64,000 bases of DNA from Nitrospirota bacterium. Its GTDB lineage: Bacteria > Nitrospirota > UBA9217. Positions 1,771-20,465 of the stretch are shown one piece after another. The stretch covers positions 1 to 64,000 of the forward strand of contig CAVVOB010000035.1 of the NCBI GenBank assembly GCA_963749655.1, in the 5' to 3' direction. Made by a program: the position numbers and the translations under genes. Below the pieces are notes generated by a model. It did not search any database and was not told the DNA's origin. It saw only the letters and a list, made by a program, of their open reading frames with translations. Position 1 is the first letter of the stretch; the number at the start of each line of letters is the position of its first letter.

Positions 1771-1859
1771 AATGCGGAGTGCGGAATGCGGAATGCGGAA
1801 TCATCTGAAGGCAGGAAGGAACCCGAAACTCCGCACTCCGAACTCGACACTTCGAACTT
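1771..1859. repeat. Heptamer tandem-repeat hairpin (AATGCGG arm / ACTCCGC-ACTCCGA arm)
   Basis: aatgcggagtgcggaatgcggaatgcggaa ... actccgcactccgaactcgacacttcgaact, overlapping the rsmH N-terminus. Confidence 0.75.
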
Positions 1860-2841
1860 AGTCCACGTTCCCGTTCTGCTCCGCGAGGCTGTGGACCTGC
1901 TGGCCCCCCGGCGGGGCGGCGTGTATGTCGACGGCACACTGGGCGCCGGAGGCCACGCAGCGGCGGTCCTCGAACGGTCCGCTCCCGATGGGATCGTCAT
2001 CGGCCTGGACCGGGACCTTGATGCAGTGGAACGATGCACCGCGAGCCTCGCGAAGTACGGAGGCCGGGCGATCATCCGCCAGGCGAACTACCGCGATCTT
2101 CCGTCGGTGCTCGCCGACCTGGGTTATGAAGCCGTGGATGGGGTGCTGCTCGATCTCGGCGTTTCGTGGTTCCACCTCAAGACCCCGGAGCGCGGCTTCA
2201 GCTTCATGCTGGACGGTCCGCTGGACATGCGCATGGACAGGAACGGGCCGCGGACGGCGGCGGACCTGGTGAACGGTCTCTCCCGCGACGAGCTTGCAAG
2301 GATCATCGGTGAATACGGGGAGGAGCGCAAGGCCGGAGCCATAGCGAGGGCCATAGAGAAGGCGAGGGCCCGGAGGCCCATCACGAGCACGGTACAGCTT
2401 GCCGAGATAGTGTCCAGTGTCTTTCCTCCTTACCCTCCCCGGCGCATTCATCCCGCCACACTCACGTTCCAGGCCCTTCGGATAGCGGTCAACGACGAAG
2501 TCGACGCGCTCAGCGAAGGCGTAGCCGCGATGATCCCTCTGCTGAAACCGGGGGGAAGGATCGCCGTCATCACGTTTCATTCGCTTGAGGACCGGATCGT
2601 GAAACGCGCCTTTGTCGGCGCGGCAAAGGGGTGCATCTGTCCTCCCAAAATGCCCCTGTGCGCCTGCGGAAAAAAGCCGGAGCTCAGGATTCTCACGCAC
2701 CGTCCTCACATGGCGGGACCGGAAGAGGTGGCGCAAAACCCTGCCGCACGGAGCGCCAAGCTCCGGGCTGCGGAAAAACTGGCGTCTTCCGTTGAAGACG
2801 AGACCGGACGCCGTGCGAGCGGCGGACGGGGGCGCAACTGA
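1786..2841 (+). CDS. rsmH: 16S rRNA m4C1402 methyltransferase RsmH (MraW)
   Basis: HVPVLLRE, YVDGTLGAGGH, DLGVS, RGFSF, LDMRMD, HPATLTFQALRIAVN, FHSLEDRIVK, RSAKLR. Confidence 0.97.
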   Translation: MRNAESSEGRKEPETPHSELDTSNLVHVPVLLREAVDLLAPRRGGVYVDGTLGAGGHAAAVLERSAPDGIVIGLDRDLDAVERCTASLAKYGGRAIIRQANYRDLPSVLADLGYEAVDGVLLDLGVSWFHLKTPERGFSFMLDGPLDMRMDRNGPRTAADLVNGLSRDELARIIGEYGEERKAGAIARAIEKARARRPITSTVQLAEIVSSVFPPYPPRRIHPATLTFQALRIAVNDEVDALSEGVAAMIPLLKPGGRIAVITFHSLEDRIVKRAFVGAAKGCICPPKMPLCACGKKPELRILTHRPHMAGPEEVAQNPAARSAKLRAAEKLASSVEDETGRRASGGRGRN

Positions 2842-2878
2842 TTTCCGGCTTTGTTTTTGCCGGTGAACGAGTTATTTT

Positions 2879-3214
2879 ATGACAACACGGGTCGGCGGCA
2901 TAGGGTCACTGGTGTTCGAACGAGGCAGGCGCGGAAGCCTGCGGCGGATGTTTGCGACCCTCGTGATCATCACCGCCCTGCTTCTCTATGTGGGAGGGAA
3001 GGTCAAGATCATGCGTCTCGGGTATCAGATCGAGGCGCTCGAGCGCGAGAAACGGGAGCTGGAACGGGCGAACCGGTCCCTCAAGATCGAGGCGGCAAGT
3101 CTGACCACGGCGGCGCGCATCGAGGAGATCGCGAAAAAGCGGTTCGGCATGGTGGTTCCTCCCAAGGATTCCATTGTCGTTGTGAAACGGAAAGCAGCGC
3201 CCAAAGAGAAATAA
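2879..3214 (+). CDS. ftsL: Cell division protein FtsL
   Basis: Single TM followed by coiled coil ending RIEEIAKKRFGMVVP; lies between rsmH and ftsI. Confidence 0.88.
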   Translation: MTTRVGGIGSLVFERGRRGSLRRMFATLVIITALLLYVGGKVKIMRLGYQIEALEREKRELERANRSLKIEAASLTTAARIEEIAKKRFGMVVPPKDSIVVVKRKAAPKEK

Positions 3215-3357
3215 GGGCGGACTGCGTCGGCACTGTTCGCAGCGTGAAGAAGGGGAGACTGCTTTCGGCCAGAAGTCGGAATGCAAGGGTCGCGGTTTTT
3301 CCGGCTTCAGGAGATGTTCCGGTCTGGTCCGGCGCCAAGCGGGCTTGTCCGGGTTAG

Positions 3358-5097
3358 GTGAGTATGGAACGACGGGGGCGCATCCTCCTTATATTGTTTG
3401 TCATCACCGCGGGCTTCGGGCTCGTAGCCCTGAGACTTGTCTACCTTCAGGTGCTCGAGCGCTCCAAGCTTTCGGTGCGGGCGGAGCGTCAGCAGGAGCA
3501 GGTCGTGACGCTCGAGCCCAAGCGCGGGACCATCTTCGACCGCATGGGCAGGGAGCTGGCCGTAAGCCTCGATGTCGATTCCGTATACGGCGTTCCTTCC
3601 AAGGTCGACCGGCCCCGGGAACTGGCGCTGCAACTGTCGCGGATCCTGCATGAAGATCCCCGGCTGCTGGAGCGTAAGCTCGAGGGCGGCAAGCACTTTG
3701 TGTGGCTCAGCCGGAAGGTGGATCCGGACAAGGCGAAAAAAATAAAAGAACTCCGCTCCGATGAGGTCGGCCTCCGCACCGAGACGAGGCGGTTCTATCC
3801 CAAGAAGGCCCTGGCCGGTCCGGTGCTCGGTTTTACGAGCATTGACAACATCGGCCTCGAGGGACTTGAACGGACCTACGACTCGGTCCTCCGCGGCGTG
3901 AACGGGTGGGTTCTTGCCGAGAAGGATGCAATGGGCAGGACGGTCTTCCCCGGAGGCCCCGGCTACCAGTACAAGATGCCCAAGCCCGGGAGCGACGTCA
4001 TCCTGACGATCGACGAGGTGATCCAGCACATCGCCGAGAAAGAGCTTGACGCCGCCCTTGCCAGCTCCCGCGCGAAAGGCGGGGTCTGCCTTGTCATGAA
4101 TCCGCAGACCGGAGAGATCCTCGCCCTGTCGGTCCGCACGAACGGTCACGGTAGCGCGGCCTTCAATCCGAACGAGCCCCAGCGCTACAAGCCGGCCGAA
4201 TGGCGGAACCGGGCGGTAACGGACAGCTTCGAGCCAGGCTCCATATTCAAGGCGGTGCTGGCAGCCGCGGCCCTCGAGGAAAAGGTCGTCCATCCCCTCG
4301 AACGGGTCGATTGCAGCGCCGGCAGCATCAAGGTCGCTGATCGGGTGATCAACGACGCGCACCGCAACGGGGTGCTGACCTTTACCGATGTGATCGCCGA
4401 ATCGAGCAATGTGGGCACCATCAAGGTCGCCCTGAGGCTCGGAAAGGACCGCTTCTCGAAATACATCTCCGCTTTCGGCTTCGGCCGGAAGACCGGCGTG
4501 GACCTGCCGGGAGAGATCTCGGGGTCGGTCAAGGACAGCAGGCTGTGGTCGGGAGTGTCCATCGCCTCGATCGCGATCGGCCAGGAGGTCGGCGTTACGC
4601 CGCTCCAGATGGCGACCGCCTATTCGGCGCTGGCGAACGGCGGCACGCTGATGAAGCCGTACATCGTGTCGGAAATCGCCGGCGGCAGCAGCGGGCAGGC
4701 GAAAAAATTCGGCCCCCAGCCGATCGCCCGCATTGTTTCCGAGGACACGTGCAGCAAGGTGAATGCGATGCTGAAGCGGGTCATTGAGATCGGCACGGGC
4801 ACGCAGGCAAAGCCCTCCGGCTACAGCGCGGCCGGAAAGACCGGCACTGCCCAGAAGATCGACTCGCGAACGGGCTTGTATTCGAAGAAGGACTATGTGA
4901 GCTCCTTCGTCGGTTTTGTGCCGGCATCGGCGCCCAGGCTCGTGATCGTTGTTATGGTGGACACTCCTGAAAGCGGATCTATCTACGGCGGCACCGTGGC
5001 CGCGCCGGTGTTCAAGGCAGTGGCCGAGCAGAGTCTCGCCTATCTGCAGGTCCCGCCTGATGACATGGGAGGCAGGATGCTTCTGGTGACACGATGA
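3358..5097 (+). CDS. ftsI: Class B PBP FtsI (PBP3)
   Basis: RGTIFDR, RFYP, GLEGLE, EPGSIFK (SxxK), SSN, KTGTAQK. Confidence 0.95.
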   Translation: MSMERRGRILLILFVITAGFGLVALRLVYLQVLERSKLSVRAERQQEQVVTLEPKRGTIFDRMGRELAVSLDVDSVYGVPSKVDRPRELALQLSRILHEDPRLLERKLEGGKHFVWLSRKVDPDKAKKIKELRSDEVGLRTETRRFYPKKALAGPVLGFTSIDNIGLEGLERTYDSVLRGVNGWVLAEKDAMGRTVFPGGPGYQYKMPKPGSDVILTIDEVIQHIAEKELDAALASSRAKGGVCLVMNPQTGEILALSVRTNGHGSAAFNPNEPQRYKPAEWRNRAVTDSFEPGSIFKAVLAAAALEEKVVHPLERVDCSAGSIKVADRVINDAHRNGVLTFTDVIAESSNVGTIKVALRLGKDRFSKYISAFGFGRKTGVDLPGEISGSVKDSRLWSGVSIASIAIGQEVGVTPLQMATAYSALANGGTLMKPYIVSEIAGGSSGQAKKFGPQPIARIVSEDTCSKVNAMLKRVIEIGTGTQAKPSGYSAAGKTGTAQKIDSRTGLYSKKDYVSSFVGFVPASAPRLVIVVMVDTPESGSIYGGTVAAPVFKAVAEQSLAYLQVPPDDMGGRMLLVTR

Positions 5098-6785
5098 AAC
5101 TGGGCGAACTCCTGAGCGCCTTGGAGGGAACGGCGACGCTGCCGCAGGCCGCGATGAACGGCGAAGTGGCCGACATCGCCCACGATTCCCGGAAAGTGGC
5201 CCCGGGCTCCCTTTTTGTGGCCGTGCGAGGATTTCACTCGGACGGCCATCAGTTTATTCCGCAGGCCCTCGAGCGGGGGGCCGCGGCCGTGGTCGCAGAA
5301 CAGGCGGGTGTTCCCGCGGCAACGGGCTCCGGCTCCGTCCCCTTTGTCGTTGTCGAGGACTCGCGCCGGGCGCTGGCGCGACTGGCAGCGGCTTTTTACG
5401 GTCATCCTTCCCGCAGGATCAAAGTGGTCGGCATTACGGGGACGAAGGGAAAGACGACGACCAGCTATCTCGTCAAGTCCGTTATCGAGGCCGCAGGGCA
5501 AACAACGGGGCTCATCGGGACCATCGACTACCGCGTGGGCGACAAGGTCTATCCCGCTCCGAATACCACGCCCGAATCTCTGGACCTTCAGGCGCTCCTC
5601 GCCGAAATGGCCGCTGCGCGGGCCGGGTACTGCGTGATGGAAGTGTCGTCACATGCCCTTGCCCTCGGCAGGACCGATGAGTGCGTTTTCGAGGCAGCCG
5701 CGTTCACGAACCTCGCCCACGATCACCTGGATTTTCACGGAACGGCCGATGACTATTTTCAGGCCAAGCTCCTGTTGTTCACCGGGCTCGGCCGCGACAA
5801 GGTCGCGGTGGTCAATGCCGATGACGAGCGGTCCAGGCAGATCGTCGCAAGCAGCAAGGCCCGCCTGATAACCTTCGGGCTTGCCGGGAACGCCGACGTC
5901 CGTCCGCGGACGGCCATCGGCCATGGCCTGCAGGGGCTGGCTTTCACGGCGGCGACGCCTGCGGGCGACATTGCCGTCGAGTCCCCCCTGGTGGGGAGGC
6001 ACAACGTCTATAACATCCTGACGGCTGTCGGTCTGGGCCTCGGCCTCGGCTTCTCTCCCGGGACCATCGCGACGGGCATCCGGCGAATGCGGGCCGTGCC
6101 CGGACGGATGGAGAAGGTGGACGAGGGCCAGAAGTTCGGCGTGCTCGTCGACTATGCCCATACCGAGGGTTCGCTCGCATCGCTGCTGGAAGCCGTCCGC
6201 GACGTGGCTGCGGGCAGGATCATCACCGTCTTCGGATGCGGCGGAGACCGGGACCGGACCAAACGGCCTAAGATGGGAGCAGCGGCCCTGAAGGGAAGCG
6301 ATCTCGTGATCGTGACCTCCGACAATCCGCGCACCGAGGACCCGGCCGGCATCATTCGGGAGATCGAAGCCGGCATGGCCGCGGGATAAGAATGATCGAG
6401 TTCGAGTCGCTGAAGGGATATACAAAGGACGGCGTCCGGGGAAGCAGAACTCCCTACGCGGTCATCCCCGACCGGCATGCAGGCAATAGCCGCCGCAGTC
6501 GGGATGGCCGGTGCAGGGGATGTCGTCGTGCTTGCCGGCAAAGGCCACGAGGACTATCAGATCATCGGCGACCGGAAGATCCACTTTGACGACCGGGAAA
6601 TTGCGAGAGAAGAAATCAGGAAGCAATGCGGATTGCGGATTGCGAAATGCGGAATGAAGAAGGGGTTAGGGGCATTGCGGATTGCAAATTGGACAATCGA
6701 CGGTCAGCATTCTTCATCTTGTTCTCGTATTGCAATCCGCAATTCGAAATTGAACTATGAACAGCATCTGAAGAAATGTTGTTAA
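5094..6785 (+). CDS. murE: UDP-MurNAc-tripeptide synthetase MurE (meso-DAP type); frameshifted near 6385 and 6478, true stop uncertain
   Basis: [49 protein letters not shown]; C-terminal AGKGHEDYQ...FDDRE in another frame. Confidence 0.92.
6625..6753. repeat. Heptamer repeat hairpin (ATTGCGG/AATGCGG arm, AATCCGC/AATTCGA arm) at the murE-murF junction
   Basis: aatgcggattgcggattgcgaaatgcggaat...attgcggattgcaaatt ... ttgcaatccgcaattcgaaattg. Confidence 0.75.
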
Positions 6786-8129
6786 GCGATCTCTTGGGAA
6801 GGATGGAGCGCATGGAAATCAAAGGAGTATCCATAGACTCCCGGAGCATCAGGGAGGGCGAGCTGTTCGTCGCGCTCAAGGGCGACCGCTTTGACGGCCA
6901 TGATTTTGTTCCTGCCGCGATGCAGCGGGGCGCCTGGGGCGCGCTCGTGGACCGCGTTGCGCTGGAGAATAAGTTCGCCAGCCTGGGCGGGCTCAAGAAC
7001 ATTCTGCCCGTGGATGACACGCTGTTTGCGCTGCAGGAGATGTCGCTCATGCACCGGAAGAAAGTACGCGATCCCTGTCGTCGGGATCACGGGCTCGAAC
7101 GGCAAGACCACGACCAAGGAAATGCTCGCCGGCATCCTGGCGCAGAACGGGCCGGTGCTCAAGAACGAAGGGAACCTGAACAATCACATCGGCGTGCCGC
7201 TCACGCTCCTGAAGCTCAACGCAGGCCATCGGGCGGCAACGGTCGAGATGGGAATGAGCGCAGCCGGAGAGATCGACCTGCTCGCGCGCCTGGTGAGCCC
7301 CACGGTGGGTGTGATCACGAACATCGGACCCGCGCACCTGGAGTTTTTCGGCGGAAGCCTCGACGGTGTGGCCGCGGCCAAAGGGGAGCTCCTGGATAAT
7401 CTGGGGCCCGATGCAACGGCCGTGCTGAATGCCGATGATCCGTATTTTTCGGCCTTGCAGGCCAGGTTCAACGGGGCAAAGGTGACCTTCGGCACAACCG
7501 CTGGGGCGGATGTGGCTGCCACCGGCATCCGACAGGAGCGGGACGCCATCGAGTGTACGATCTCGGCCCATGGCGCTTCGGCGGACGTCCGGCTCCGCGC
7601 CGCAGGCATGCATAATGTCTACAATGCTCTGGCCGCGGCTGCAGGGGCGATCGCAGTCGGTCTTACCCTGGAGGCGGTGAAGCAGGGACTGAACAGCTTC
7701 ACTCCCGTTGCTCTGCGGTCCGAGATCAGGGATGTCCAGGGGAGGACCGTTCTCGCAGATTGCTACAATGCCAATCCGGCCTCCATGGCGGCGGCGATCG
7801 ACACCCTGGCGTCACTCGGCGCGGGCCGGAAAACCATAGCCGTGCTCGGCGACATGCTTGAGCTGGGCGATGCCGGCGTTGAGGCCCACCGCGAGATCGG
7901 CCGCGCCGCGGCGCGAAGCAAGATAGATCTGATCATCACGCTCGGCACGCTGGGCAGGCAGATCGGTCAGGGCGCCCGCGAAGCGGGAATGGAAAAGGGG
8001 CAGGTTCTGGAAGCGGGTAAGCACGCCGACGCGGCGGAACTGCTGCGCAAGCATTCGCGGCCGGGCGACGTCATCCTCATCAAGGGATCACGGGGCATGA
8101 AAATGGAGAAGGTCCTGGAGGAGTTCTGA
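6776..8129 (+). CDS. murF: UDP-MurNAc-pentapeptide synthetase MurF; frameshift near 7060
   Basis: VSIDSR...[15 protein letters not shown] in one frame; [47 protein letters not shown] in the next. Confidence 0.93.
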
Positions 8130-9211
8130 TGCTTTATCATTTGCTCTATCAGCTGCATAACACGGTCCCCGGCTTCAACGTGTTCCGGTACATAACGTTC
8201 CGGAGCGCCGGCGCCGTGCTGACGGCGCTGCTCGTGAGTTTTCTCCTGGGGCCGTCGGTGATCGCATGGCTGAGGCGGCTGAAGGTCGGGCAGCACGTCC
8301 GGGACGACGGGCCGCATACCCACCTGTCCAAGCAGGGCACCCCGACCATGGGCGGCCTTCTCATCATTGCCGCCCTGGTCACCTCGGTCCTTTTGTGGTC
8401 CGATCTTTCGAACAAGTATGTCTGGGTCGTGCTCTTTGCGACAATCACGTTCGGCGGCATCGGCTTCTGGGACGATTATCTGAAAGTGGTGAAGAAGAGG
8501 TCTACGGGGCTCCGGGCGTATCAGAAGTCGGGGCTCCAGGTCCTGGCGTCGCTCGCGATCGGTTTCTTCCTCTACTATACTCCGGGCGATCCCTTCAGCA
8601 CCCATTTGTCCGTGCCGTTCCTGAAGCGCCTGTTGCTGGACCTGGGCTGGTTCTACATTCCCTTCGTGGTTGTCGTGATCGTCGGATCGTCCAATGCCGT
8701 TAACCTTACCGACGGCCTCGACGGCCTTGCGATCGGCCTCGTGGGAATTGCGTCCACGGCCAACGCGGTGATCGTCTACCTGGGCGGGAACAAGATCATT
8801 GCGGATTACCTCAAGATCCTCTACATTCCCGGAAGCGGCGAGCTGGCGATCTTTTGCGGCGCGCTGCTCGGAGCGAGCCTCGGATTCCTGTGGTACAACT
8901 CGCACCCGGCCGAGGTATTCATGGGCGACGTGGGCTCCCTCTCCCTGGGCGCAGCGCTCGGGACTCTTGCCGTGGTCACGAGGCACGAGCTCATCCTGGT
9001 CATCACCGGCGGCATCTTCGTGGCCGAGACCGTGTCGGTCATGCTGCAGGTCGCATCGTACAAGCTGACGGGCAGGCGCATCTTCAGAATGGCGCCGATC
9101 CATCACCACTTTGAGCAGATCGGATGGCCCGAGTCCAAGGTCATTACACGGTTCTGGATCGTCGGGATCATCCTGGCGCTGATCTCGATCGGGACACTGA
9201 AGTTGAGGTAG
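8129..9211 (+). CDS. mraY: Phospho-MurNAc-pentapeptide transferase MraY
   Basis: KQGTPTMGG, GFWDDY, SNAVNLTDGLDGL, FMGDVGS, MAPIHHHFE. Confidence 0.98.
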   Translation: MLYHLLYQLHNTVPGFNVFRYITFRSAGAVLTALLVSFLLGPSVIAWLRRLKVGQHVRDDGPHTHLSKQGTPTMGGLLIIAALVTSVLLWSDLSNKYVWVVLFATITFGGIGFWDDYLKVVKKRSTGLRAYQKSGLQVLASLAIGFFLYYTPGDPFSTHLSVPFLKRLLLDLGWFYIPFVVVVIVGSSNAVNLTDGLDGLAIGLVGIASTANAVIVYLGGNKIIADYLKILYIPGSGELAIFCGALLGASLGFLWYNSHPAEVFMGDVGSLSLGAALGTLAVVTRHELILVITGGIFVAETVSVMLQVASYKLTGRRIFRMAPIHHHFEQIGWPESKVITRFWIVGIILALISIGTLKLR

Positions 9212-9222
9212 AAAACAACAGA

Positions 9223-9282
9223 AGTGCATGGTGCAGAGAGCAGAGCGTTAAATTCCTTGCGCCAAGCGCTCTGCGCTCTGCG
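9223..9282. repeat. Heptamer repeat hairpin (GCAGAGA arm / GCTCTGC arm) at the mraY-murD junction
   Basis: gtgcatggtgcagagagcagagcg ... tgcgccaagcgctctgcgctctgcg. Confidence 0.72.
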
Positions 9283-9296
9283 TGAGTGGAGGCATT

Positions 9297-10637
9297 GTGC
9301 AACCTGATTTCAAGGGCAAGAAGGTAACGGTCGTCGGTCTGGCGCGGAGCGGGGTCGCTGCTGCACGGGCATTGGAAGCCCTCGGCGCGAGCGTGACCGT
9401 GACGGACAGGAAGCCGCTGGACCAGCTGACGGCGCAGGTCCGGGCGCTCGGCAGCAGCCGGATCGCCGTTGAAGCGGGCGGACATCCCGACCGCATTTTC
9501 CTCGAGTCCGATCTTATCGTGCTTTCCCCCGGCGTGCCGAATACTATTCCGCCGATCATGCAGGCACGCGGCGCGGCGTGAAGGTGATCAGCGAGCTGGA
9601 GCTGGCGTGGCTCCTCTCGGATTCTCCCTACGTCGGCATTGCGGGCACGAATGGAAAATCCACGGTCACGACGCTCGTCGGGCTCATGCTCGCGCGGGCG
9701 AAGAAGAAGGTCCTGGTGGCCGGAAACATCGGCAACGCGCTCACGGACGATGTTTCGCTTCTCAGGGACCGGGACTGGATCGTCGCCGAGCTTTCCAGCT
9801 TCCAGCTCGAGGACATCGACACCTTCCGTCCGCGTGTTGCGACGATCCTGAACGTGACCCAGGACCATCTGGACCGGTATCGCGATATGAACGAATACGC
9901 CGAGGCCAAGGCCCGCGTCTTCATGAACCAGCAGAACTCGGACTTCCTGGTGCTTAACTTCGATGATCCGGTTGTGAAGTCATTTGCACGGCGGACGGCT
10001 GCGACCGTGGTCCCCTTTTCCCGCCTTCTGCGCTTTAACCCGGGCGCATGCGTTCTCGACGGGAGGGTCCGTGTTCAACGGCAAGCCCGTTATCAATGCC
10101 GACGAGATCAGGATCAAGGGCGTCCACAACCTCGAGAACGCCCTGGCCGCCGCCGCGATGGCGCTCTGCGCAGGGGCCGACACCGGGTCGGTGGCCGCTG
10201 TGCTCCGCGAGTTCCCGGGACTTGAGCACCGCCTCGAATTCGTGCGCGAGTTGAACGGCGTCACGTATATTAATGACTCCAAGGGAACGAATGTGGGCGC
10301 CGTGGTAAAGTCCGTCGAAGGGTTCACGCAGCCGGTCATCCTGATCGCCGGCGGCCTGGACAAGGGAAGCGACTTCAGCCCCCTCTTCGACCTGTTCAGG
10401 CGGAAGGTGCGGCTGCTGATCCTGATCGGCAAGGCAGCAGACAAGATGGCGAAGGCGCTCGGAGCTTCCACCGAAACGGTATTTGCGCAATCACTTCAGG
10501 ATGCGGTGAAGCTTGCGTCCCAGCGCGCGAATAAGGGGGACGTTGTGCTCCTGTCGCCTGCCTGCGCGAGTTTTGATATGTTCAGGGATTTCGAGGACCG
10601 GGGCAGGCAGTTTAAGGAAGCGGTGAAAGCGCTTTAA
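9297..10637 (+). CDS. murD: UDP-MurNAc-L-Ala:D-Glu ligase MurD; frameshifts near 9545-9578 and 10065
   Basis: VVGLARSG, LSPGVP; GTNGKSTVT, ELSSFQL, DHLDRY; HNLENA, LEHRLE, NDSKGTN, LLSPACASFD spread over three frames; GGAGG-GTG start at 9297. Confidence 0.93.
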
Positions 10638-10687
10638 GCAGAGAGCAGAGAGATCCTCCCCTCTGCGCCATGCTCCATGCACTATGC
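10637..10687. repeat. Heptamer repeat hairpin at the murD-ftsW junction
   Basis: agcagagagcagagag atcctccc ctctgcgccatgctccatgcactatgc. Confidence 0.68.
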
Positions 10688-10711
10688 AGGAGAATTCTAT
10701 TGCAGAACGTA

Positions 10712-11812
10712 ATGCATGAAAGAGGCCGCTTCGACCGGGTGCTGCTTTTCGCCATCCTTGCGCTGGTCGTGGGGAGCGTCGTGATGGTATACAGTGCGAG
10801 CAGCGTTGTCGCGCTCACCACCTATGACGACCCGGCGTTCTTCATGAAGCGGCAGGTCCTGTGGGCGCTGATCGGCCTCGCGCTCATGATGGTCGTGATG
10901 CGCATCGACCACCGAAGGCTGGCGGACCAGCGGGTTGCGCTCGCGCTGATCGCGGTCTCCCTGGTCCTGCTTGCGGCCACGCTGGTGCCCGGCATCGGGA
11001 GAATGGTGAACGGTTCCCGCCGGTGGCTGCGGTTCGGCATGTTGTCGTTCCAGCCGTCGGAGCTGGTGAAGTTTTCCCTCGTGGTGTACCTGAGCTACTA
11101 CGTCGCCAAGAAGGGCGAACGGCTCCGGGATTTTGCGAACGGCCTGGTTCCGGCCTACGTCGTCACGGCCGTGCTTCTGGCGGTGGCTGCGCTGCAGCCG
11201 GATTTCGGAGCGGCCATGACGCTGGCCTGCGTGGCGGGCGTCATGCTCTTTGCCGGAGGCGCCAGCCTGCTCCACATCGGGGGGACGGTGCTCGCGGCCC
11301 TGCCAATGGTCTATTTTGCCGTGACGCATGAAGCCTACCGCTGGCGCCGCATCTCGTCCTTTCTCGATCCCTGGTCCGATCCCCAGGGGGCGGGACATCA
11401 GATCATCCAGTCCTTTCTGGCCTTCGGCAGCGGCGGCGTGTTCGGGCGGGGGCTCGGTGAAGGCAGGCAGAAGCTCCTGTTCCTGCCGGAGCGGCACTCG
11501 GATTTCATCTATGCCGTGATCGGCGAAGAACTGGGCCTCATCGGCACGCTCGCGGTGATCGCGCTGTTTTTGATCATCCTGCGCCAGGGAGTGAAGATAG
11601 CGCTCAAAGCGGGCGAGCCTTTCAGCCGCATGCTCGCCCTCGGGATAACGCTTCTTATCTGCCTCCAGAGCCTGATAAACATGGCTGTGGTAACCGGTCT
11701 GCTGCCGACCAAGGGGATCGCGCTTCCGCTCGTGAGCTACGGAGGCTCGTCGCTCGTGATCACGATGGGGGCGCTGGGTGTACTGCTGAATATCTCTAAG
11801 GAAGCGTCGTGA
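10712..11812 (+). CDS. ftsW: SEDS peptidoglycan polymerase FtsW
   Basis: VMVYSAS, NGSRRWL, FQPSELVK, QPDFG, LPERHSDFI, GEELG, PTKGIALPLVSYGGSS. Confidence 0.96.
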   Translation: MHERGRFDRVLLFAILALVVGSVVMVYSASSVVALTTYDDPAFFMKRQVLWALIGLALMMVVMRIDHRRLADQRVALALIAVSLVLLAATLVPGIGRMVNGSRRWLRFGMLSFQPSELVKFSLVVYLSYYVAKKGERLRDFANGLVPAYVVTAVLLAVAALQPDFGAAMTLACVAGVMLFAGGASLLHIGGTVLAALPMVYFAVTHEAYRWRRISSFLDPWSDPQGAGHQIIQSFLAFGSGGVFGRGLGEGRQKLLFLPERHSDFIYAVIGEELGLIGTLAVIALFLIILRQGVKIALKAGEPFSRMLALGITLLICLQSLINMAVVTGLLPTKGIALPLVSYGGSSLVITMGALGVLLNISKEAS

Positions 11813-11818
11813 AGAGGC

Positions 11819-11850
11819 AATGCGGAATGCGGAATGCGGAATGCGGAATT
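11819..11850. repeat. (AATGCGG)x4 tandem heptamer at the ftsW-murG junction
   Basis: aatgcggaatgcggaatgcggaatgcggaatt. Confidence 0.85.
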
Positions 11851-11879
11851 GAGGTCCGCACGGCGCAAGCGGAACCCGA

Positions 11880-12953
11880 ATGAATGTCGTCATCGCAGGC
11901 GGGGGGACGGGCGGACATCTGTATCCCGGGATCGCGATCGCCCGGGAGCTCCTCCGGAAAACCGGTAATTCGGTGCTTTTCATCGGAACGGAACAGGGGA
12001 TCGAGGCCAGGGTCCTTCCCAGGGAGGGCCTGCCGGTCCGCTTTATTACGGCAGGCAAGCTGAAAGGAATGAAACTGCGGTCAATCATAAAAACGGTGTT
12101 CGGCCTGCCTGCGGGCGTCGTCCAGTCCCTGCGGCTGCTGCGGCAGGCAAAGGCTGAGATAGTGATCGGCGTGGGCGGCTACGCTTCAGGACCGGTCGCC
12201 GTTGCTGCGCTTGCGCTGCGGATTCCGCTTTTGATCGTGGAGCCGAATTCCTACGCAGGCCTGGCGAACAGAAAGCTCGGCAGGTTTGCAGACAAAGTGG
12301 TTCTCTGCTTTCCCGGCCTCGGAGCCCGGCGGTTCTTCCCGCAGACAAAGACGGTCATTACGGGCCCGCTGGTCAGGAAAGGGATCGATGAGGGCGACCA
12401 CGGCAAGGCGCTTGCCACCTTCGGGCTGGAGCCCGGACAATTCACGGTTTTCGTGATGGGCGGAAGCGGCGGGGCCCATGCGATCAATATGGCCATGAAA
12501 GAGGCGGCGCCGCTGCTTAAAGATCTGCCGAAGCTCCAGGTTCTGCACCAGACCGGCGAGAAAGACGTGGACGATGTGGCGCGGGGCTACCTGGCTGCCG
12601 GCATCAGGGCCGTGGTCCTGCCATATATCGATGATATGGCGGCGGCATATGCCGCCGCGGATCTGGTCGTGTCGCGTTCCGGCGCCACCACCATTGCCGA
12701 GCTTGCGGTTTGCGGAAAGCGGGCGGTGCTCATACCGTTTCCCTTTGCCGCGGACAACCACCAGGAGTACAACGCGCGAACACTCGCAGAGCGGGGCGGC
12801 GCGGAAGTGGTGCTCCAGAAGGACCTGACTCCCCTCAGGGTGGCCGGCCTGATACGGCAGTTCGCGGGCAAAGGGGGCGGACCCGGCCGGCCTGTGAAGA
12901 TGGAAAAAAACGCCGCAGCGGAAATCGTGAGGATCTGTTCAGACTATGTTTAA
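11880..12953 (+). CDS. murG: Lipid II GlcNAc transferase MurG
   Basis: [38 protein letters not shown]. Confidence 0.97.
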
Positions 12954-14331
12954 GAGAATAAAGCACATCCATTTCGTGGGAATCGGCGGCATCGGCATGA
13001 GCGGCATCGCGGAGGTGCTCCTGAACCTGGGGTATAAGGTATCGGGTTCGGACATGAAGGAGTCGGACACCACCGAGCGCCTGCGAAAGCTGGGAGGCGA
13101 GATCTTCATCGGCCACCGGGCGGAAAACATCACGGAACCGCACGTGGTCGTGATCTCGTCGGCGGTGAAAAGCGACAATGTCGAAGTCGTCGCCGCGCGG
13201 GAGAAGCAGATCCCCGTGATCCCCCGCGCCGAGATGCTGGCGGAGCTGATGCGGCTCAAGTACGGCGTTGCCATCGCCGGCGCCCACGGCAAGACCACGA
13301 CCACGTCCATGGTCTCGACCCTGCTGGCCGCCGGCGGCATCGATCCCACGGTCGTGATCGGCGGAAAGCTGAACAGCCTCGGCACGAACGCCAAGCTCGG
13401 ACAGGGGGAATTTCTCGTGGCCGAGGCGGACGAGAGCGACGGGAGCTTCCTCAAGCTCTCCCCCACCATCGCCGTGGTTACCACCATCGACGCCGAGCAT
13501 TTGGACTACTACCGGGACATCGATGAGATCAAGGCGGCTTTTCTCACCTTCATCAACAAGGTGCCTTTCTACGGCGTTGCGGTATTGTGTCTCGATCAGC
13601 CGCATATCCAGTCGCTGATCCCGCGCGTCGAGAAACGCTACCAGACCTACGGCTTGAGCACCCAGGCGGATTACCAGGCGCGCGACATCTCCCTGCGGTC
13701 CCTCGGGTCGACCTTCAGGGTCCTGCACCATAACGAGGACCTGGGCTCCTTCGAGCTGGCGGTGCCCGGCGTACATAACATCAACAACAGCCTTGCCGCG
13801 ATCGCCGTGGCGCGTGAACTGGAGATCGACCTGGAGGTCATCAGAAAGGCGCTCAAGGAGTTCAGCGGAGTCCAGCGACGTTTCCAGATCAAGGGCGAGG
13901 CGAGGGGCGTCATCGTTGTTGACGACTACGGTCATCACCCCACGGAAGTAAAGGCCACGCTGGCTGCCGCGGCCGCGGGCATGGAGCGCCGGGTCGTGGT
14001 CGTGTTTCAGCCCCATCGTTACACGCGGACGCAGCACCTGCTTGAAGAGTTTTTTACCGCTTTCAACCAGGCCGACAAACTGATCGTCATGGACATCTAT
14101 GCGGCCGGAGAGAAGCCGATTCCGGGTGTCACGGGCCAGGCTTTATACGAAGGGATCAGGAAGCACGGCCACAAGGACGTGACCTACATTCCTGAACGCG
14201 AAAAGATCGTCGATCATCTGGCCGAGGTTCTGAAGAAGGGCGACCTGATGCTGACCCTGGGCGCCGGCGACGTGTGGAAGATAGGGGAGCAGGTCGTGGA
14301 GCGATTGAAGCGTGAAAATTCCGGGATTTAA
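12946..14331 (+). CDS. murC: UDP-MurNAc:L-Ala ligase MurC
   Basis: [54 protein letters not shown]. Confidence 0.98.
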
Positions 14332-15220
14332 AGGAGAGCTCAGGAAAAACGAACCGCTCAGCCTGCACAGTTCCTTCCGGATCGGCGGGCCTGCAGACCT
14401 GTTTGCGCTGCCTGTTGACCGTGAGGATCTTGCCGTCCTGCTTCAGGAGATCGCAAAGCAGGGCCTCAGCTGGTTCGTCATCGGCGGCGGCACGAACCTG
14501 CTGGTCAGGGACGGCGGTTTCCGGGGCGTCGTGGTCAGCCTGCAGCGCATGAAGTCGATCAGTGTCGACAGACAATACCGTTCGATCGGAGGGAATTTTG
14601 CCGTCCTTGCGGTTGACGCTGGCGCGCTGCTGGCATCGGCCCTGTCCTTTGCCGTCGAGGAAGGGCTGACAGGCCTTGAGTTTGCCGCCGGCATCCCGGG
14701 CACCGTGGGCGGCGCCGTGTGCATGAACGCGGGAACAGCTGCGGGGGAGTTCGGCGATATCGTCGAGTCAGTGACGCTCCTCGCGCCTGACGGAGCGTTC
14801 CTCGTCCGCGGGCGGGAAGAAATGGGCTTCGGATACCGGACTGCTACGGTGCCCGACAGCCACGTGGTTGTGGATGTGCGAATCATCCTTCGCCGCGGCG
14901 AAGCGGACCGGGTCAGGGCAACGGTCCAGGAGCTCATGGACGGGAGAAAGAAACGGCAGCCCGGCGGGTTTCCGAACGCGGGGTCCGTATTCAAGAATCC
15001 GCAGGAAGCCGCCGCGGGAAGATTGATCGAGGCGGCGAAGCTCAAGGGAAAGCGGATCGGCGGGGCGCAGGTCTCGGAAAAGCATGCCAATTTCATCGTG
15101 AATACGGGGAATGCGACAGCTTCGGATGTGCTCAGGCTCATGGAGATCGTGAAAGAGGCCGTGCTCGACACCCAAGGCGTGCGGCTTGAGCCGGAGATCA
15201 AGATCGTGGGAGAAGACTGA
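14312..15220 (+). CDS. murB: UDP-N-acetylenolpyruvoylglucosamine reductase MurB
   Basis: [55 protein letters not shown]. Confidence 0.97.
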
Positions 15221-15225
15221 ATAGA

Positions 15226-15270
15226 ATTTCGGAATGCGGATTTCGGAATGCGGATTGCGGAATGCGGAAT
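15226..15270. repeat. Six-unit heptamer array (ATTTCGG/AATGCGG/ATTGCGG) after murB
   Basis: atttcgg aatgcgg atttcgg aatgcgg attgcgg aatgcgg aat. Confidence 0.85.
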
Positions 15271-15310
15271 GAAAATCGGAAATCATGTAAGCAAAGACAA
15301 AACAAAGTTA

Positions 15311-15392
15311 GCCACGAATTACACGAATTTGCACGAATTGGAAAAGACTTGCTGACGGGTTTTAATTCGTGTCAATTCGTGAAATTCGTGGC
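15311..15392. repeat. Inverted pair of CACGAATT 9-10-mer tandem arrays before ddl
   Basis: gccacgaattacacgaatttgcacgaatt ... aattcgtgtcaattcgtgaaattcgtggc. Confidence 0.85.
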
Positions 15393-15406
15393 AAGAAGGA
15401 TTTGAC

Positions 15407-16372
15407 ATGGCCTTGGTGACAACGAAAAAGATCGGCGTTTTGATGGGCGGGCTTTCGTCGGAGCGCGAGGTTTCGCTCGCAACGGGCAACGCCATTCTGA
15501 AAGCGCTCAAGGAAAAAGGTTACGACGCCGTGGGCGTGGACGTGGGGCGTGACGTGGCGGAGCAGCTGCGGAAAGCCGGGGTCGCGGTGGCGTTCAACGG
15601 GCTTCACGGCAAGTTCGGCGAGGACGGAGCGATCCAGGGGCTGCTCGAGATCGCGGGCATTCCTTACACGGGTTCGGGCATCCTTGCAAGCGCCATGGGC
15701 ATGAACAAGGTCGTCTCCAAGCTGGTTTTCAAGTCCCACGGCCTTCGTGTCGGGCCCTACGCGGTTATCGACGCGGACCGGCGCGAGCAGCTGAACGAGA
15801 TCCCGTCGATCATTCCCTTTCCCGTGGTGGTCAAGCCCATTTCGGAAGGATCGAGCGTCGGCGTCAGTCTCGTGTACACGTTCGAAGAGCTGAGGCCCGC
15901 GGCCGAACTCGCCTTCGGCTTCGACCGGGAGATTCTGGTGGAGAAGTTCATTGCCGGCAAAGAAGTCCAGGTCGGGATCCTCGGCAACCGCGCTCTGGGC
16001 GCGATCGAGATCGTGCCGAAGAAGAGCGCCTTTTACGACTACGAAGCAAAATATGCAGAAGGAATGTCGGATCATTATTTTCCCGCCAGGATCGATGCGG
16101 AAGCATATCAGCGGGTCCTCGATGCCGGTCTGGCAGCGCACCGCGCCCTGGGGTGCAGGGGCTACAGCCGCGTGGACTTCATTGTCGACGCTCTCGGTTC
16201 GCCCTCTATCCTCGAGGTGAACACGCTTCCGGGGATGACTGCCACGAGCCTGCTGCCCGACATCGCCCGGGGCGTAGGCATGGAGTTTCCCGATCTCGTG
16301 GAGGAGATCCTGAGATTGGCGCTGTTGAAAAGCGGAATGCGGAATGCGGAACCGGCATGGAATGCGGAGTGA
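15407..16372 (+). CDS. ddl: D-Ala-D-Ala ligase
   Basis: GGLSSEREVSL, LHGKFGEDG, PYTGS, GSSVGV, YDYEAKY, RVDF, EVNTLPGMT; last residues encoded by an AATGCGG repeat. Confidence 0.97.
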   Translation: MALVTTKKIGVLMGGLSSEREVSLATGNAILKALKEKGYDAVGVDVGRDVAEQLRKAGVAVAFNGLHGKFGEDGAIQGLLEIAGIPYTGSGILASAMGMNKVVSKLVFKSHGLRVGPYAVIDADRREQLNEIPSIIPFPVVVKPISEGSSVGVSLVYTFEELRPAAELAFGFDREILVEKFIAGKEVQVGILGNRALGAIEIVPKKSAFYDYEAKYAEGMSDHYFPARIDAEAYQRVLDAGLAAHRALGCRGYSRVDFIVDALGSPSILEVNTLPGMTATSLLPDIARGVGMEFPDLVEEILRLALLKSGMRNAEPAWNAE

Positions 16373-17288
16373 ATGACGCAGGCGCGAACCATGCGTGACT
16401 ACAAGAACGTCAGAGTTCCGAAGTCGTACCGCGGCGGATCGAACCGCAGAACGGTTAAGCGGGTACAGGTCACCCGTTCTGCCGGGCGGTCCGGCGAACG
16501 AAGCGGCAGCGGGCTGGTCGGTTTTCTGCAGAAAACCCTGGCTGTGCTCGTTACCGCCGCGGCCATCGGCCTCTGCTGGCAGGGCTACCGGACGCTGACC
16601 ACCTCCGGCATGTTCATCGTGTCCGGCGTGGATATCAAGGGCGTTCATCATCTGAGCGACGGCGACCTCGCCGAGGTTGCAGCGGCTTTTTCGGGGCAGA
16701 ACATTTTTCGGGTCGACGTGGACGCCGCGGTGCGGCGCGCCCGCGCCAATCCCTGGGTAAAAGACGTCCGGGTCCACCGCCGGCTTCCGAACCGGATCAC
16801 CATGGTGGTCACGGAGCGGGTGCCGGCGTACCTTCTCGAAACAGGAGCCGGGCGTTTTGTGATGGACAATGAGGGAGCGATCATCGAGCGCATAGCGCAG
16901 AACGACGGCCATCCATGGCCGCTCCCCGTGGTAGCGATCAGGGACTGCCGCGTCCGCCCCGGAGAACAGGCGGCGACCGAGGGGCTGGCCGAGGCGATGC
17001 TTCTTCTCGACGAAATCGCGGCCCGGGGCGGGTGGAAGCTTGCGGACGTGACCATCAAAGCTGCCTCGCCGGAGGCGCTCACCATCGTATATGCGGACCA
17101 TGAGTTCAAGATCGGGAACGGCCGCTATGGTGAAAAGCTCCGCAGGCTCTCAGAGGTCCTGGCGGACGTGCAGCGGCGCGGCATCGAGATCGCTTACGTG
17201 GACCTTCGGGCGGAACGCCAGGCCGCGGTAATGGTGAAGAAGCAGGGGCCAGGGTCCGGGGGCCAGGAACAAGGGAAAACGTCTCTAG
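16373..17288 (+). CDS. ftsQ: Cell division protein FtsQ/DivIB (stop not in frame as sequenced; reads through into ftsA)
   Basis: Basic N-terminal tail, single TM, POTRA domain (NPWVKDVRVHRRLPNRITMVVTERVP), C-terminal YVDLR; end placed at the nearest out-of-frame TAG. Confidence 0.88.
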
Positions 17289-17324
17289 CCGTTCCCTGGA
17301 CCCTTGCTACTGGACCCTTGACCC
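17243..17324. repeat. Heptamer repeat hairpin (AGGGGCC/AGGGTCC arm, TGGACCC arm) at the ftsQ-ftsA junction
   Basis: caggggccagggtccgggggccagg ... ccctggacccttgctactggacccttgaccc. Confidence 0.7.
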
Positions 17325-17341
17325 GAATGAGGAGGTTGCTT

Positions 17342-18565
17342 GTGGCCAAGAAAAAGCCGGACAATGTTCTTGTGGGTCTGGACCTCGGAACGACCAAAGT
17401 CTGCGCCATCGTGGGCGAAGTCAAGGAGGGCGGCCAGGTCGACATCATCGGGATCGGGATCAGCGCTTCCCACGGCCTCAAGAAGGGCGTGGTCGTCAAT
17501 ATCGACAGCACCGTGGAGTCCATCAAGAAGGCGATCCAGGAAGCGGAGCTCATGGCCGGCGTGGAGATCAACTCGGTCTATGTGGGGATCTCGGGCGGAC
17601 ATATCAAGGGCATCAATTCGCGCGGGGTGGCGGCCATCAAGAACCGCGAAGTCGGGCCGGCGGACGTGGCACGGGCGATCGACGGGGCGCGGGCGGTGAA
17701 TTTCCCCATGGACCAGCAGATCCTCCACGTGCTGCCCCAGGAGTTCATCATCGACGACCAGGACGGCATCAAGGACCCGCTCGGCATGTCGGGAACGCGT
17801 CTCGACGTGAAGGTCCATATCATCACCGGCGCCGTCACGGCAATCCAGAACATCGTTAAAAGCTGCTCCCGGGCCGGACTGAGCGTGAGCGACCTCGTGC
17901 TCCAGCCGCTCGCCTCGAGCCGGGCCGTGCTCACGGCCGAGGAGCAGGAGCTCGGCGTCGTGGTGGCCGACATCGGCGGCGGGACCACGGACCTGGCCTT
18001 CTTCCTGGAGGGAAGCCTCTGGCATACCGAAGTGCTTCCGATCGGCGGCAACCACCTGACGAACGATATCGCCATCGGCCTCAGAACGCCGGCGTCGGAG
18101 GCGGAAAAGATCAAGATCAAGTACGGCTGCGCGCTTTCGTCTCTCGTGAAGCACGAGGAGACACTGGACGTCCCCAGCGTGGGCGGAAGGCCCCCGCGCC
18201 TGTTGTCGCGCCAGATCCTGTGCGAGATCATCGAGCCGCGCGTGGAGGAGCTCTTCGGCATGGTGCAGCAGCGGCTCAAGAAGACGGGCTTCGAGGACAT
18301 GTTCGCCTCGGGCGTCGTGCTGACGGGCGGTACGGCGTTGATGGAGGGCGTGCAGGACGCCGCCGAGCGGTACCTCGGCCTTCCGGTGCGCAAGGGCGCG
18401 CCGCGGAACATCGGCGGCCTGATGGACGTGGTGAACAGCCCCATTTACGCTACCGGTGTCGGGCTCGTGATCTACGGAGCAGAGAACCTGCAGGAATCGC
18501 CACGCAAGTTCAAAAGCGCCGGCTCGGTGAGCCGGATCTGGAAATGGCTGGGGGAGTATATTTAG
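17342..18565 (+). CDS. ftsA: Cell division protein FtsA
   Basis: GAGGAGG RBS then GTG at 17342; VGLDLGTTKV, GLKKGVVVNI, ADIGGGTTD, GGNHLTNDI, VLTGG. Confidence 0.96.
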   Translation: MAKKKPDNVLVGLDLGTTKVCAIVGEVKEGGQVDIIGIGISASHGLKKGVVVNIDSTVESIKKAIQEAELMAGVEINSVYVGISGGHIKGINSRGVAAIKNREVGPADVARAIDGARAVNFPMDQQILHVLPQEFIIDDQDGIKDPLGMSGTRLDVKVHIITGAVTAIQNIVKSCSRAGLSVSDLVLQPLASSRAVLTAEEQELGVVVADIGGGTTDLAFFLEGSLWHTEVLPIGGNHLTNDIAIGLRTPASEAEKIKIKYGCALSSLVKHEETLDVPSVGGRPPRLLSRQILCEIIEPRVEELFGMVQQRLKKTGFEDMFASGVVLTGGTALMEGVQDAAERYLGLPVRKGAPRNIGGLMDVVNSPIYATGVGLVIYGAENLQESPRKFKSAGSVSRIWKWLGEYI

Positions 18566-18566
18566 G

Positions 18567-18672
18567 AATTGCGGATTGCGAATTGCGGATTGGAAGCAGA
18601 CGGCTCGGCTGAATGTTTTTCGATCTTCGGTTTTTCCTCAATGCGAAATCGACAATCCGCAATTCACAATTG
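18567..18672. repeat. Heptamer repeat hairpin at the ftsA-ftsZ junction
   Basis: aattgcggattgcgaattgcggattgg ... cgaaatcgacaatccgcaattcacaattg. Confidence 0.78.
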
Positions 18673-18689
18673 TATTATCCGGAGGAGCT

Positions 18690-20403: not shown

Positions 20404-20465
20404 GCTTTCACCTCAGGAGAATTGGATTCCATTGATGGGGACCGGCTATCCGGCAGTCCTGCCGG

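What the first reader, a model, noticed from the sequence alone, without database searches (positions are those of the whole stretch)
1771..18672. Heptamer tandem-repeat hairpins occupy 9 of 16 gene junctions in the dcw operon
Seen: 7-mer tandem arrays lie at STAS/rsmH (1771), murE/murF (6625), mraY/murD (9223), murD/ftsW (10637), ftsW/murG (11819), murB/ddl (15226), ddl/ftsQ (about 16331), ftsQ/ftsA (17243) and ftsA/ftsZ (18567), and also at 24627 and 63066. Most have a degenerate reverse-complement array within about 100 nt downstream, forming a hairpin. The unit differs between sites (AATGCGG, GCAGAGA, AGGGTCC, GTTTCGA), but both arms at a site use the same unit, so this is not one transposed sequence. 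Established: dcw genes are normally tightly packed. Inference: a junction-targeting element or repeat-generating mechanism whose products fold out of the mRNA. From recollection, such heptamer arms flank four-helix-bundle (TIGR02436, IVS/Avd-like) genes elsewhere, so these may be cargo-less versions or RNA processing/translation-tuning sites.
Basis: partly seen in the sequence, partly recalled or inferred. Interest (0 to 1): 0.82.

Follow-up and report, generated by a model that had tools for sequence, protein, structure and literature searches.

The report
Counted repeat arms behind gene ends
The short repeats between this bacterium's cell-division genes are gene-less copies of a genome-wide family of small hairpin cassettes, whose arms stop at five repeat units and wear away in relatives that lost the cassette's five-subunit protein, which suggests that this unstudied protein recognises and maintains them.

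Summary
The arrays are real: period-7 repeats at 9 of 16 dcw junctions and none at the other 7. Only 5 of the 9 have a significant complementary arm. They are not dcw-specific: 268 genome-wide, 119 within 25 nt of a stop codon (3.6% expected). The same arms enclose all 5 full four-helix-bundle (fhb; S23p/IVS) genes. Different 8-10-mer arms enclose all 3 GxxExxY nuclease genes. The scan noted this layout before on other DNA.

Two results I found in neither papers nor scan notes. (1) Heptamer arms stop at five cores (162 with five, 8 longer, in five relatives) and GxxExxY arms at three; fhb is a homopentamer. (2) Across 56 family genomes, arrays track fhb: 13 of 16 genomes without it are array-poor, against 4 of 40 with it. 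A prediction written beforehand held for fhb (6 of 8; 22 of 23), less well for GxxExxY.

Against: three genomes keep arrays without fhb, no dcw junction with cargo was found, and the GxxExxY model is an open chain, not a closed trimer. Best reading (0.55): selfish cassettes whose protein maintains or re-seeds the arms in trans. The mechanism of movement is untested.

The parts
1771..1801 (+). 5' arm, AATG-CGG family, 3 nt behind the STAS stop
   Evidence: z -3.1 with its partner
1827..1858 (+). degenerate 3' arm running up to the rsmH start
6625..6656 (+). five-core 5' arm (32 nt), overlapping the murE C-terminal codons
6729..6751 (+). 3' arm before murF
9223..9247 (+). 5' arm, GCAGAGA family, mraY/murD
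9266..9283 (+). 3' arm, mraY/murD
10637..10688 (+). short GCAGAGA 5' arm at the murD stop and degenerate 3' arm
   Evidence: stem p=0.195
11819..11850 (+). solo five-core 5' arm, ftsW/murG
15226..15271 (+). solo 5' arm, seven cores (the longest of its family in this genome), murB/ddl
15311..15392 (+). second element: gene-less three-core CACGAAT hairpin of the GxxExxY type
   Evidence: (z -7.3); same arms around GxxExxY gene L010
16332..16351 (+). solo 5' arm read through as the ddl C-terminal extension
17242..17324 (+). GGGCCAG/GGGTCC arm pair at ftsQ/ftsA, in frame with both genes in this assembly
18568..18592 (+). 5' arm, ATTG-CGG variant, 2 nt behind the ftsA stop
18639..18670 (+). 3' arm before the ftsZ ribosome-binding site
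24627..24785 (-). AGTCTCA/AGTTTCG arm pair behind a nupC-family gene
63066..63088 (-). solo 3' arm of the AGTTTCG family
55841..55943 (+). gene-less three-core CACAGAT hairpin (GxxExxY type)

Best explanation
The dcw arrays are gene-less members of a family of small selfish cassettes built as repeat arm - cargo gene - complementary arm, which sit directly behind gene 3' ends. SHOWN: full copies carry a four-helix-bundle gene (fhb; TIGR02436/PF05635, Avd-like); each fhb lineage goes with its own 7-mer word; arms of the two commonest families hold at most five 4-nt cores (32 nt) in shuffled order; genomes without fhb have mostly lost fresh arms. A parallel system pairs GxxExxY PD-(D/E)XK nuclease genes with three-core arms. 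INFERRED: the cargo protein oligomer binds its arm one subunit per core (five for the fhb pentamer) and acts in trans on the roughly 250 gene-less copies. It either re-seeds them (a transposase-less master-gene/mini-element pair, like RAYT and REPINs in logic) or makes their sequence matter. Gene-less hairpins and solo arms arise by loss of the cargo and then of one arm, and newer elements replace older ones at the same junction. The chemistry of movement is unknown and probably uses host recombination or repair. In the dcw operon the arrays are tolerated passengers of non-overlapping junctions.
For: 5 of 5 full fhb and 3 of 3 GxxExxY genes in this genome sit between arms. In 66 of 75 fhb loci both arms were detected, and in 41 of 66 the two words match within one base (permuted mean 1.8, maximum 8). 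fhb pairs >=65% identical at different junctions share the word in 72% of 18 pairs, against 0-2% below that. Five-core cap: this genome 49/38/3/1 arms with 4/5/6/7 cores, second family 25/17/0; five relatives 204/162/6/2; IMG/VR loci 83/54/4. Three-core cap, whatever the linker length: 192 with three cores, 4 with four; IMG/VR 118/8/1. The nearest solved relatives, 2GSC and 2RLD, have five chains, and 2GSC is described as a toroidal homopentamer (PMC4990558, passages). Co-occurrence in 56 family genomes: 13 of 16 without fhb have <=2 triple-unit matches, against 4 of 40 with fhb. The first seven double-negative genomes fall in four separate lineages, and three keep stop-containing or partial fhb relics. 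Pre-registered test on 31 new genomes: 6 of 8 array-poor lacked fhb and 22 of 23 array-rich had it. Dissociation: G067 and G070 (GxxExxY only) have 11 and 42 three-core arms but 0 and 1 heptamer triples; G029, G038 and G034 (fhb only) have 31, 12 and 5 heptamer triples but no decamer pairs. Allelic series at one hydrogenase-operon junction: 12 empty, 2 filled, 4 arm-only of 18 loci; at mutS one genome has both arms joined without cargo. The STAS/rsmH arm keeps 23-25 of 25 motif positions in 9 of 10 cargo-bearing genomes whose four-fold sites are only 0.42-0.62 identical, against 17-23 in the 7 cargo-less genomes. A three-copy GxxExxY model supports head-to-tail self-assembly: score 0.65, best of 3 controls 0.01; the mark was reached by 20 of 30 proteins solved as pairs and 1 of 23 solved as single chains; runs agree in >=97% of contacts; pLDDT >=90.
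Against: G009 (47 matches), G022 (185) and G044 (21) have fresh heptamer arrays with no fhb found; they are 84-91% complete, so missing contigs or recent loss are possible but unshown. G007, G015, G066 and G071 have fhb but <=2 matches of the tested family, and a second pattern rescued only G015. The pre-registered prediction failed for GxxExxY in 4 of 8 genomes. No cargo was found at any dcw junction (21 relatives by gap inspection; 0 of 160 loci by HMM), none within 700 nt of 254 arms in IMG/VR, and no partial cargo relic in this genome's loops. The GxxExxY model is an open chain (copy 1 to 3 to 2), not the closed trimer I predicted. The AGTCAGG and GCAGAGA families exceed five cores (up to 12-18 units). 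40 of 42 five-core arms have distinct sequences and their loops looked unrelated by eye, unlike recently copied MITEs. Genomes are kin, so the Fisher p-values (2.5e-4 and 5e-7) overstate. No binding or mobility was measured.
Confidence: 0.55

Rival explanations
1. Passive scars with a common cause. Cassettes arrive continually by horizontal transfer and homologous recombination between conserved flanking genes, lose their cargo, and leave arms. Lineages that stop exchanging DNA lose cargo and fresh arms together. The protein binds at most its own message.
For: Two near-identical copies of one junction in this assembly carry different cassettes, and their identity falls from about 95% to about 55% over the last ~75 nt of the upstream gene, like a conversion tract. 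fhb and GxxExxY mostly occur together. Unrelated words replace each other at one junction.
Against: No general rise of flank similarity towards dcw junctions (13 gene ends). The two arm types dissociate by cargo in five genomes. About 250 arms to 5 genes and no cargo relics in loops. Cargo-less G001 and G002 carry 20-22 Y1 transposase matches, so they still receive mobile DNA.
Confidence: 0.2
2. Domesticated RNA regulation. The pentamer binds the purine-rich arm on the transcript just behind stop codons and tRNA ends, or the arm pair forms an RNase III site as in 23S intervening sequences, and the host selects the arms to tune operon mRNA.
For: The 5' arm stays a median 6 nt behind the stop whatever the gap size, while the 3' arm is not tied to the next start. 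Solo sense arms outnumber solo antisense arms 84 to 33 (p=3e-6). Arms follow 6 of 46 tRNA genes. RNase III cuts the heptamer-bearing IVS stem in vitro (PMC4990558, passages). Arms persist at STAS/rsmH across near-saturated synonymous divergence.
Against: Words, presence and decay vary at the same junction between relatives, and several lineages live without the system. There is no G.U bias. Five-core matches also occur on the antisense arm. The three-core arms show no sense bias (36 vs 30).
Confidence: 0.15
3. A repeat-writing enzyme adds a counted number of units de novo at gene or RNA 3' ends, with the fhb ring as a ruler or as an Avd-like partner of a reverse transcriptase.
For: Fixed count with shuffled unit order and fixed phase at both ends. 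fhb hits the bAvd profile below its cut-off (E 3.5e-8). Arms are pinned to 3' ends.
Against: RVT_1 does not track the arrays: none found in array-rich G006, G021 and G024, ten in array-free G001. Orthologous arms look vertically inherited and drift.
Confidence: 0.07
4. Ordinary slippage microsatellites or G-quadruplex motifs, unrelated to the small genes.
For: Two families do expand homogeneously. Xanthomonas heptamers were read as G-quadruplexes (PMC4692102, abstract passages and section 10).
Against: Sharp cap instead of a smooth length decay (p=1e-24). The main words here have no G-tracts. There is a tie to cargo genes and to gene ends.
Confidence: 0.03

Closest known systems
ORF-bearing 23S rRNA intervening sequences with S23p (PMC4990558; passages read)
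   Same: Complementary ends enclosing a PF05635 four-helix-bundle gene; tandem heptamers upstream of the ORF; sporadic distribution.
   Different: Here the cassettes sit between protein genes and behind tRNAs, most copies are gene-less, and excision from RNA is untested.
Intergenic GGGAATC heptamer repeats of Xanthomonas and GGGGAYT of Nostoc (PMC4692102; passages and section 10 read)
   Same: G-rich strand in sense within 50 nt of stops, inverted partners, few in divergent gaps, mode of four full units, not at the same genes in related species.
   Different: Read there as G-quadruplexes, with no cargo gene named in the parts I read; the words here cannot form quadruplexes and several word families coexist.
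TAACTGA repeats of Beggiatoaceae (PMC4679880; abstract, passages and section 23 read)
   Same: Two to six heptamer copies at gene junctions in core operons; the author suggested that a repeat-binding protein might be the mobile element.
   Different: No such protein was identified there; here fhb is the candidate, with count and co-loss evidence.
REPINs and RAYTs (PMC3116915; abstract and passages read)
   Same: Few master genes flanked by the repeat, many gene-less extragenic hairpins, tandem clusters.
   Different: The master gene is not an HUH/Y1 transposase, PF01797 does not track the arrays, and arms are counted tandem words rather than one palindrome.
P6b heptanucleotide hairpins of the Nostoc tRNA-Leu intron (PMC3488679; passages read)
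   Same: Degenerate heptamer arms that base-pair, swapped repeat classes at one site, and extra elements inserted into the arms.
   Different: One intron locus; no cargo gene in the passages read.
TRAP-type ring proteins that bind one short repeat per subunit (recalled, from no call)
   Same: Proposed one-subunit-one-repeat logic.
   Different: Unrelated fold; an analogy only.

Membership tests
ORF-bearing rRNA intervening sequence (IVS) | Complementary termini around a PF05635/S23p gene | tested here: met
   5 of 5 full fhb genes in G000; not met by the dcw copies themselves, which are gene-less
ORF-bearing rRNA intervening sequence (IVS) | Located inside an rRNA gene | tested here: not met
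   The window copies lie at protein-gene junctions
ORF-bearing rRNA intervening sequence (IVS) | Excised by RNase III | not testable with these tools
   Needs RNA-end data or an in vitro assay
REPIN-RAYT | Y1/HUH transposase that covaries with and is flanked by the repeats | tested here: not met
   PF01797 in 23 of 25 genomes, 20-22 matches in array-free G001 and G002; the flanks of the 6 matches in G000 were not inspected one by one
REPIN-RAYT | Many extragenic gene-less hairpin doublets | tested here: met
   88 of 267 period-7 arrays have a partner within 200 nt, null 0
MITE / insertion sequence | Near-identical copies including the internal part | tested here: not met
   40 distinct strings among 42 five-core arms; 26 listed loops differ by eye
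MITE / insertion sequence | Target-site duplication | not tested
   No systematic search; none noticed in the empty/filled series
Diversity-generating retroelement | Avd together with a reverse transcriptase and template repeat | tested here: not met
   fhb is Avd-like (PMC10053308 passages) but RVT_1 does not covary with the arrays; template repeats were not sought
Homing endonuclease element (GxxExxY system) | Intact nuclease active site | tested here: met
   D62 and K74 invariant, E72 >=90%, in 28 proteins; Cas4/lambda-exonuclease-like fold
Homing endonuclease element (GxxExxY system) | Co-conversion of flanks | tested here: inconclusive
   One suggestive pair; no general signal at dcw

The most novel reading that the evidence does not exclude
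Two widespread, transposase-less selfish elements each use a small self-assembling protein that reads its own tandem word by counting, five cores for the Avd-like pentamer and three for the GxxExxY nuclease. Each seeds hundreds of gene-less arms behind gene 3' ends, essential operons included. This would explain the long-noted excess of heptamer repeats in bacteria, give PF05635 and PF13366 a function, and make rRNA intervening sequences and the DGR accessory protein Avd offshoots of one mobile-element class.
Probability: 0.35. Interest if true: 0.9.

Novelty: new variant of a known kind. Interest (0 to 1): 0.72.

Why it matters
Heptamer repeats at gene ends and the S23p/four-helix-bundle family have each been unexplained for years. 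The count cap and the co-loss turn the link between them into two cheap experiments: bind the pentamer to four-, five- and six-core arms, and watch for new arms with and without the gene. If it holds, it is a programmable one-subunit-one-word nucleic-acid binder with many natural specificities, and a route by which DNA lands safely behind genes, even in essential operons, sometimes rewriting protein ends.

Tried and rejected
No RNA holder listed for window 9000-18900. Laying four low-share DNA runs gave only scattered pieces, no contig across the stretch and no usable joint. G.U versus A.C bias in 26 stems: none (18 vs 14). Co-conversion test on dcw flanks: no gradient towards the junction. 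Y1 transposase and reverse transcriptase as drivers: neither covaries. Cargo at dcw junctions: none in 21 relatives or 160 further loci; the HMM positive controls passed. Partial cargo relics in loops: none. Cargo beside arms in IMG/VR: 0 of 254 loci. A length cap of about 32 nt instead of a count cap: rejected for the three-core arms, which stop at 23 nt with 1-nt linkers (34 with three cores, 3 with four). Closed GxxExxY trimer: not seen. Sequence search of PDB for GxxExxY: only two weak SmE hits, E 0.02. The 9-of-16 binomial mixes lenient and strict calls and was dropped for 5 of 16. The cargo co-orientation count was too crude to use. Several minus-strand loci were mis-oriented in the listing; orientation was redone by tblastn. 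Nine literature searches showed no paper linking these arms to fhb or GxxExxY genes outside rRNA, or reporting a count cap. The library lacks most subscription papers, I opened no supplements, and the NCBIfam comment texts for the two TIGR models were not available. Two scan look-ups for the cap and the co-loss found no note holding all the words.
Full report
OBSERVATION. The window holds a complete dcw cluster of 17 genes. The lineage is probably Nitrospirota: the only named record near 89% MurC identity is so titled. Period-7 arrays are significant at exactly the nine junctions named and at none of the other seven. Five of those seven are overlapping or near-overlapping junctions; three of them (mraZ/STAS, murF/mraY, murG/murC) stay closed in all relatives listed. 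Five of the nine have a significant complementary arm, one a weak arm, and three are solo. At murB/ddl a second element with 9-10-mer units lies behind the heptamer run.

GENOME-WIDE. Period 7 dominates: 231 arrays at score >=12, none in a Markov control. Of 268 at score >=11, 119 lie within 25 nt of a stop (random 3.6%), and 105 of these have the G-rich strand in mRNA sense (gene calls from my own self-trained caller, which covers 74% of this frameshift-rich assembly). Strict patterns hit 150 of 2044 co-oriented, 18 of 204 convergent and 3 of 166 divergent junctions. Where both arms are present the sense G-rich arm is first in 33 of 33. The 5' arm stays a median 6 nt behind the stop at all gap sizes, whereas the 3' arm is not tied to the next start. 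Arms also follow 6 of 46 tRNA/tmRNA genes, so the anchor is a gene 3' end and not a stop codon as such. This placement pattern is in print for Xanthomonas GGGAATC repeats (PMC4692102).

CARGO. All 5 full TIGR02436 genes of the genome lie between heptamer arms, each with a different word; 2 further partial hits (long-form proteins) lack such heptamer pairs. All 3 GxxExxY genes lie between 9-10-mer arms. In 75 fhb loci from the family and phylum, 66 show both arms and 41 of these match in word within one base (permuted maximum 8). Protein clades follow junction and word, and close proteins at different junctions share the word (the tree has only 107 columns and my junction clustering may split true orthologues). 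Allelic series: one hydrogenase-operon junction is empty in 12, filled in 2 and arm-only in 4 of 18 loci (18 of the 30 fetched were used, the rest being paralogues). At mutS one genome has the two arms joined without cargo. At a gspM-like junction (name recalled, from no call) cargo-less genomes keep only remnants. In G000, two copies of one junction carry an fhb cassette and a GxxExxY cassette respectively; the bin is 5.8% contaminated, so these may come from two organisms. At dcw, 21 relatives show unrelated words, decayed arms or nothing at the same junction, but never cargo, and nor do 160 further loci, 33 of them family-level.

CO-LOSS. Seven of the first 25 family genomes lack both cargo genes. 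They have 0-1 genome-wide matches to three units of the main word family and decayed dcw arms, and fall in four lineages; three keep broken fhb relics. I then wrote a prediction for 31 new genomes. For fhb it held in 6 of 8 array-poor and 22 of 23 array-rich genomes. For GxxExxY it failed in 4 of 8. That failure is informative: G067 and G070 keep GxxExxY and three-core arms but have no fhb and almost no heptamers of the tested family, the mirror image of G029, G034 and G038. Over 56 genomes, 13 of 16 without fhb and 4 of 40 with fhb are array-poor. Counter-examples: G009, G022 and G044 have arrays without fhb; G007, G066 and G071 have fhb without the two patterns tested. Only one word family was counted genome-wide in relatives, and kin are not independent. 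Y1 transposases and reverse transcriptases do not covary.

COUNT CAPS. Arms of the main family are strings of 4-nt cores (A-D-T-K) joined by 3-nt linkers, in shuffled order (40 distinct of 42). Core counts fall off a cliff after five: 49, 38, 3, 1 for 4-7 cores here, and 25, 17, 0 for the AGTT family; 204, 162, 6, 2 in five relatives (derived; p=1e-24); 83, 54, 4 in IMG/VR loci. GxxExxY-type arms stop at three cores whether the period is 8, 9 or 10 (192 vs 4; 118 vs 9), so this is a count and not a length. Two heptamer families break the rule by homogeneous expansion. The fhb relatives 2GSC and 2RLD have five chains, and 2GSC is a toroidal pentamer (PMC4990558). Rehm et al. found a mode of four full units in Xanthomonas and read it as four G-tracts; four units plus a partial core is the same five-core arm, and the words here have no G-tracts. 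GxxExxY keeps its catalytic residues and folds like Cas4 and lambda exonuclease. A three-copy model passed (0.65 against best control 0.01; mark reached by 20 of 30 solved pairs and 1 of 23 single chains; >=97% contact agreement; pLDDT >=90; calibrated on two copies only). It forms an open head-to-tail chain, not the closed trimer I expected, so the three-for-three match is unproven.

MECHANISM. Shown: anatomy, 3'-end anchoring, the word-protein link, count caps, co-loss with exceptions, and allelic series. Inferred: that the cargo oligomer binds one core per subunit and acts in trans. Unknown: whether it moves the elements, refreshes them, or only makes them selectable, and on which nucleic acid. 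Both arms obey the word code on opposite strands without compensating each other's variants and without G.U bias, which points to DNA-level recognition. The excess of solo sense arms (84 vs 33) points to RNA. I put 0.55 on trans-acting selfish cassettes, 0.2 on passive scars of continuing influx, 0.15 on domesticated RNA control, 0.07 on a repeat-writing enzyme and 0.03 on slippage or quadruplexes.

RELATION TO THE KNOWN. It is built like an ORF-bearing rRNA IVS but is not in rRNA. It is organised like RAYT-REPIN but fails the transposase test. It is not a MITE or a DGR. Papers: passages or named sections of PMC4990558, PMC4692102, PMC4679880, PMC3116915, PMC10053308 and PMC3488679 were read, none whole and no supplements. 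Nine searches (listed under Tried and rejected) showed no report of the arm-cargo link outside rRNA, the caps or the co-loss. Earlier notes of this scan had the arm-cargo layout on many other genomes, and one note on this genome read the repeats as 'not cassettes'. I agree with that note for the dcw copies taken singly, but not for the family.

VERDICT. Real; a new variant of the IVS/heptamer-repeat kind; interest 0.72, resting mainly on the count caps and the co-loss, which make a long-open question directly testable.

Noticed in passing
window 16373-18565: ftsQ and ftsA form one 730-codon ORF, the arm pair being read in frame. Relatives stop ftsQ 0-23 codons past the conserved end. A real read-through or an assembly indel.
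   Followed up: partly
window 5094-10637: murE, murF and murD are frameshifted in this assembly, probably sequencing indels.
   Followed up: partly
window 1408-1767: A STAS/anti-sigma-antagonist-like gene sits between mraZ and rsmH and is 75-92% identical in the 16 relatives whose fetched DNA reached it, an unusual fixed member of a dcw cluster.
   Followed up: partly
window 20032-20870 (minus strand): Two paralogous small Cys-rich ORFs behind ftsZ; no Pfam match at E<=0.01.
   Followed up: partly
dcw junctions of G006, G009, G014, G019 (L019/L020, L023, L031, L040/L041): A third kind of small palindrome (CCTGC...GCAGG ends) is inserted inside heptamer or 8-10-mer arms.
   Followed up: no
L005 and L010 (G000 C38 and C17): The same small-gene/dinB-like junction carries an fhb cassette in one copy and a GxxExxY cassette plus a gene-less hairpin in the other; in L005 the 3' arm is read in frame as a new N-terminus.
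   Followed up: yes
G000 C13:301408-301995: A cluster of several consecutive gene-less decamer hairpins.
   Followed up: no
G000 C18, C19, C20, C21, C28 tRNA genes: Heptamer arms begin shortly behind 6 of 46 tRNA/tmRNA genes, in sense orientation.
   Followed up: partly
window 22850-22917 and 40836-41000: Further 8-mer GxxExxY-type gene-less arms.
   Followed up: no
L035 (G016 ftsQ/ftsA): A 439-nt AT-rich insert between heptamer-like ends, with no fhb or GxxExxY hit in that genome at E<=1e-10; possibly another or a decayed cargo.
   Followed up: no
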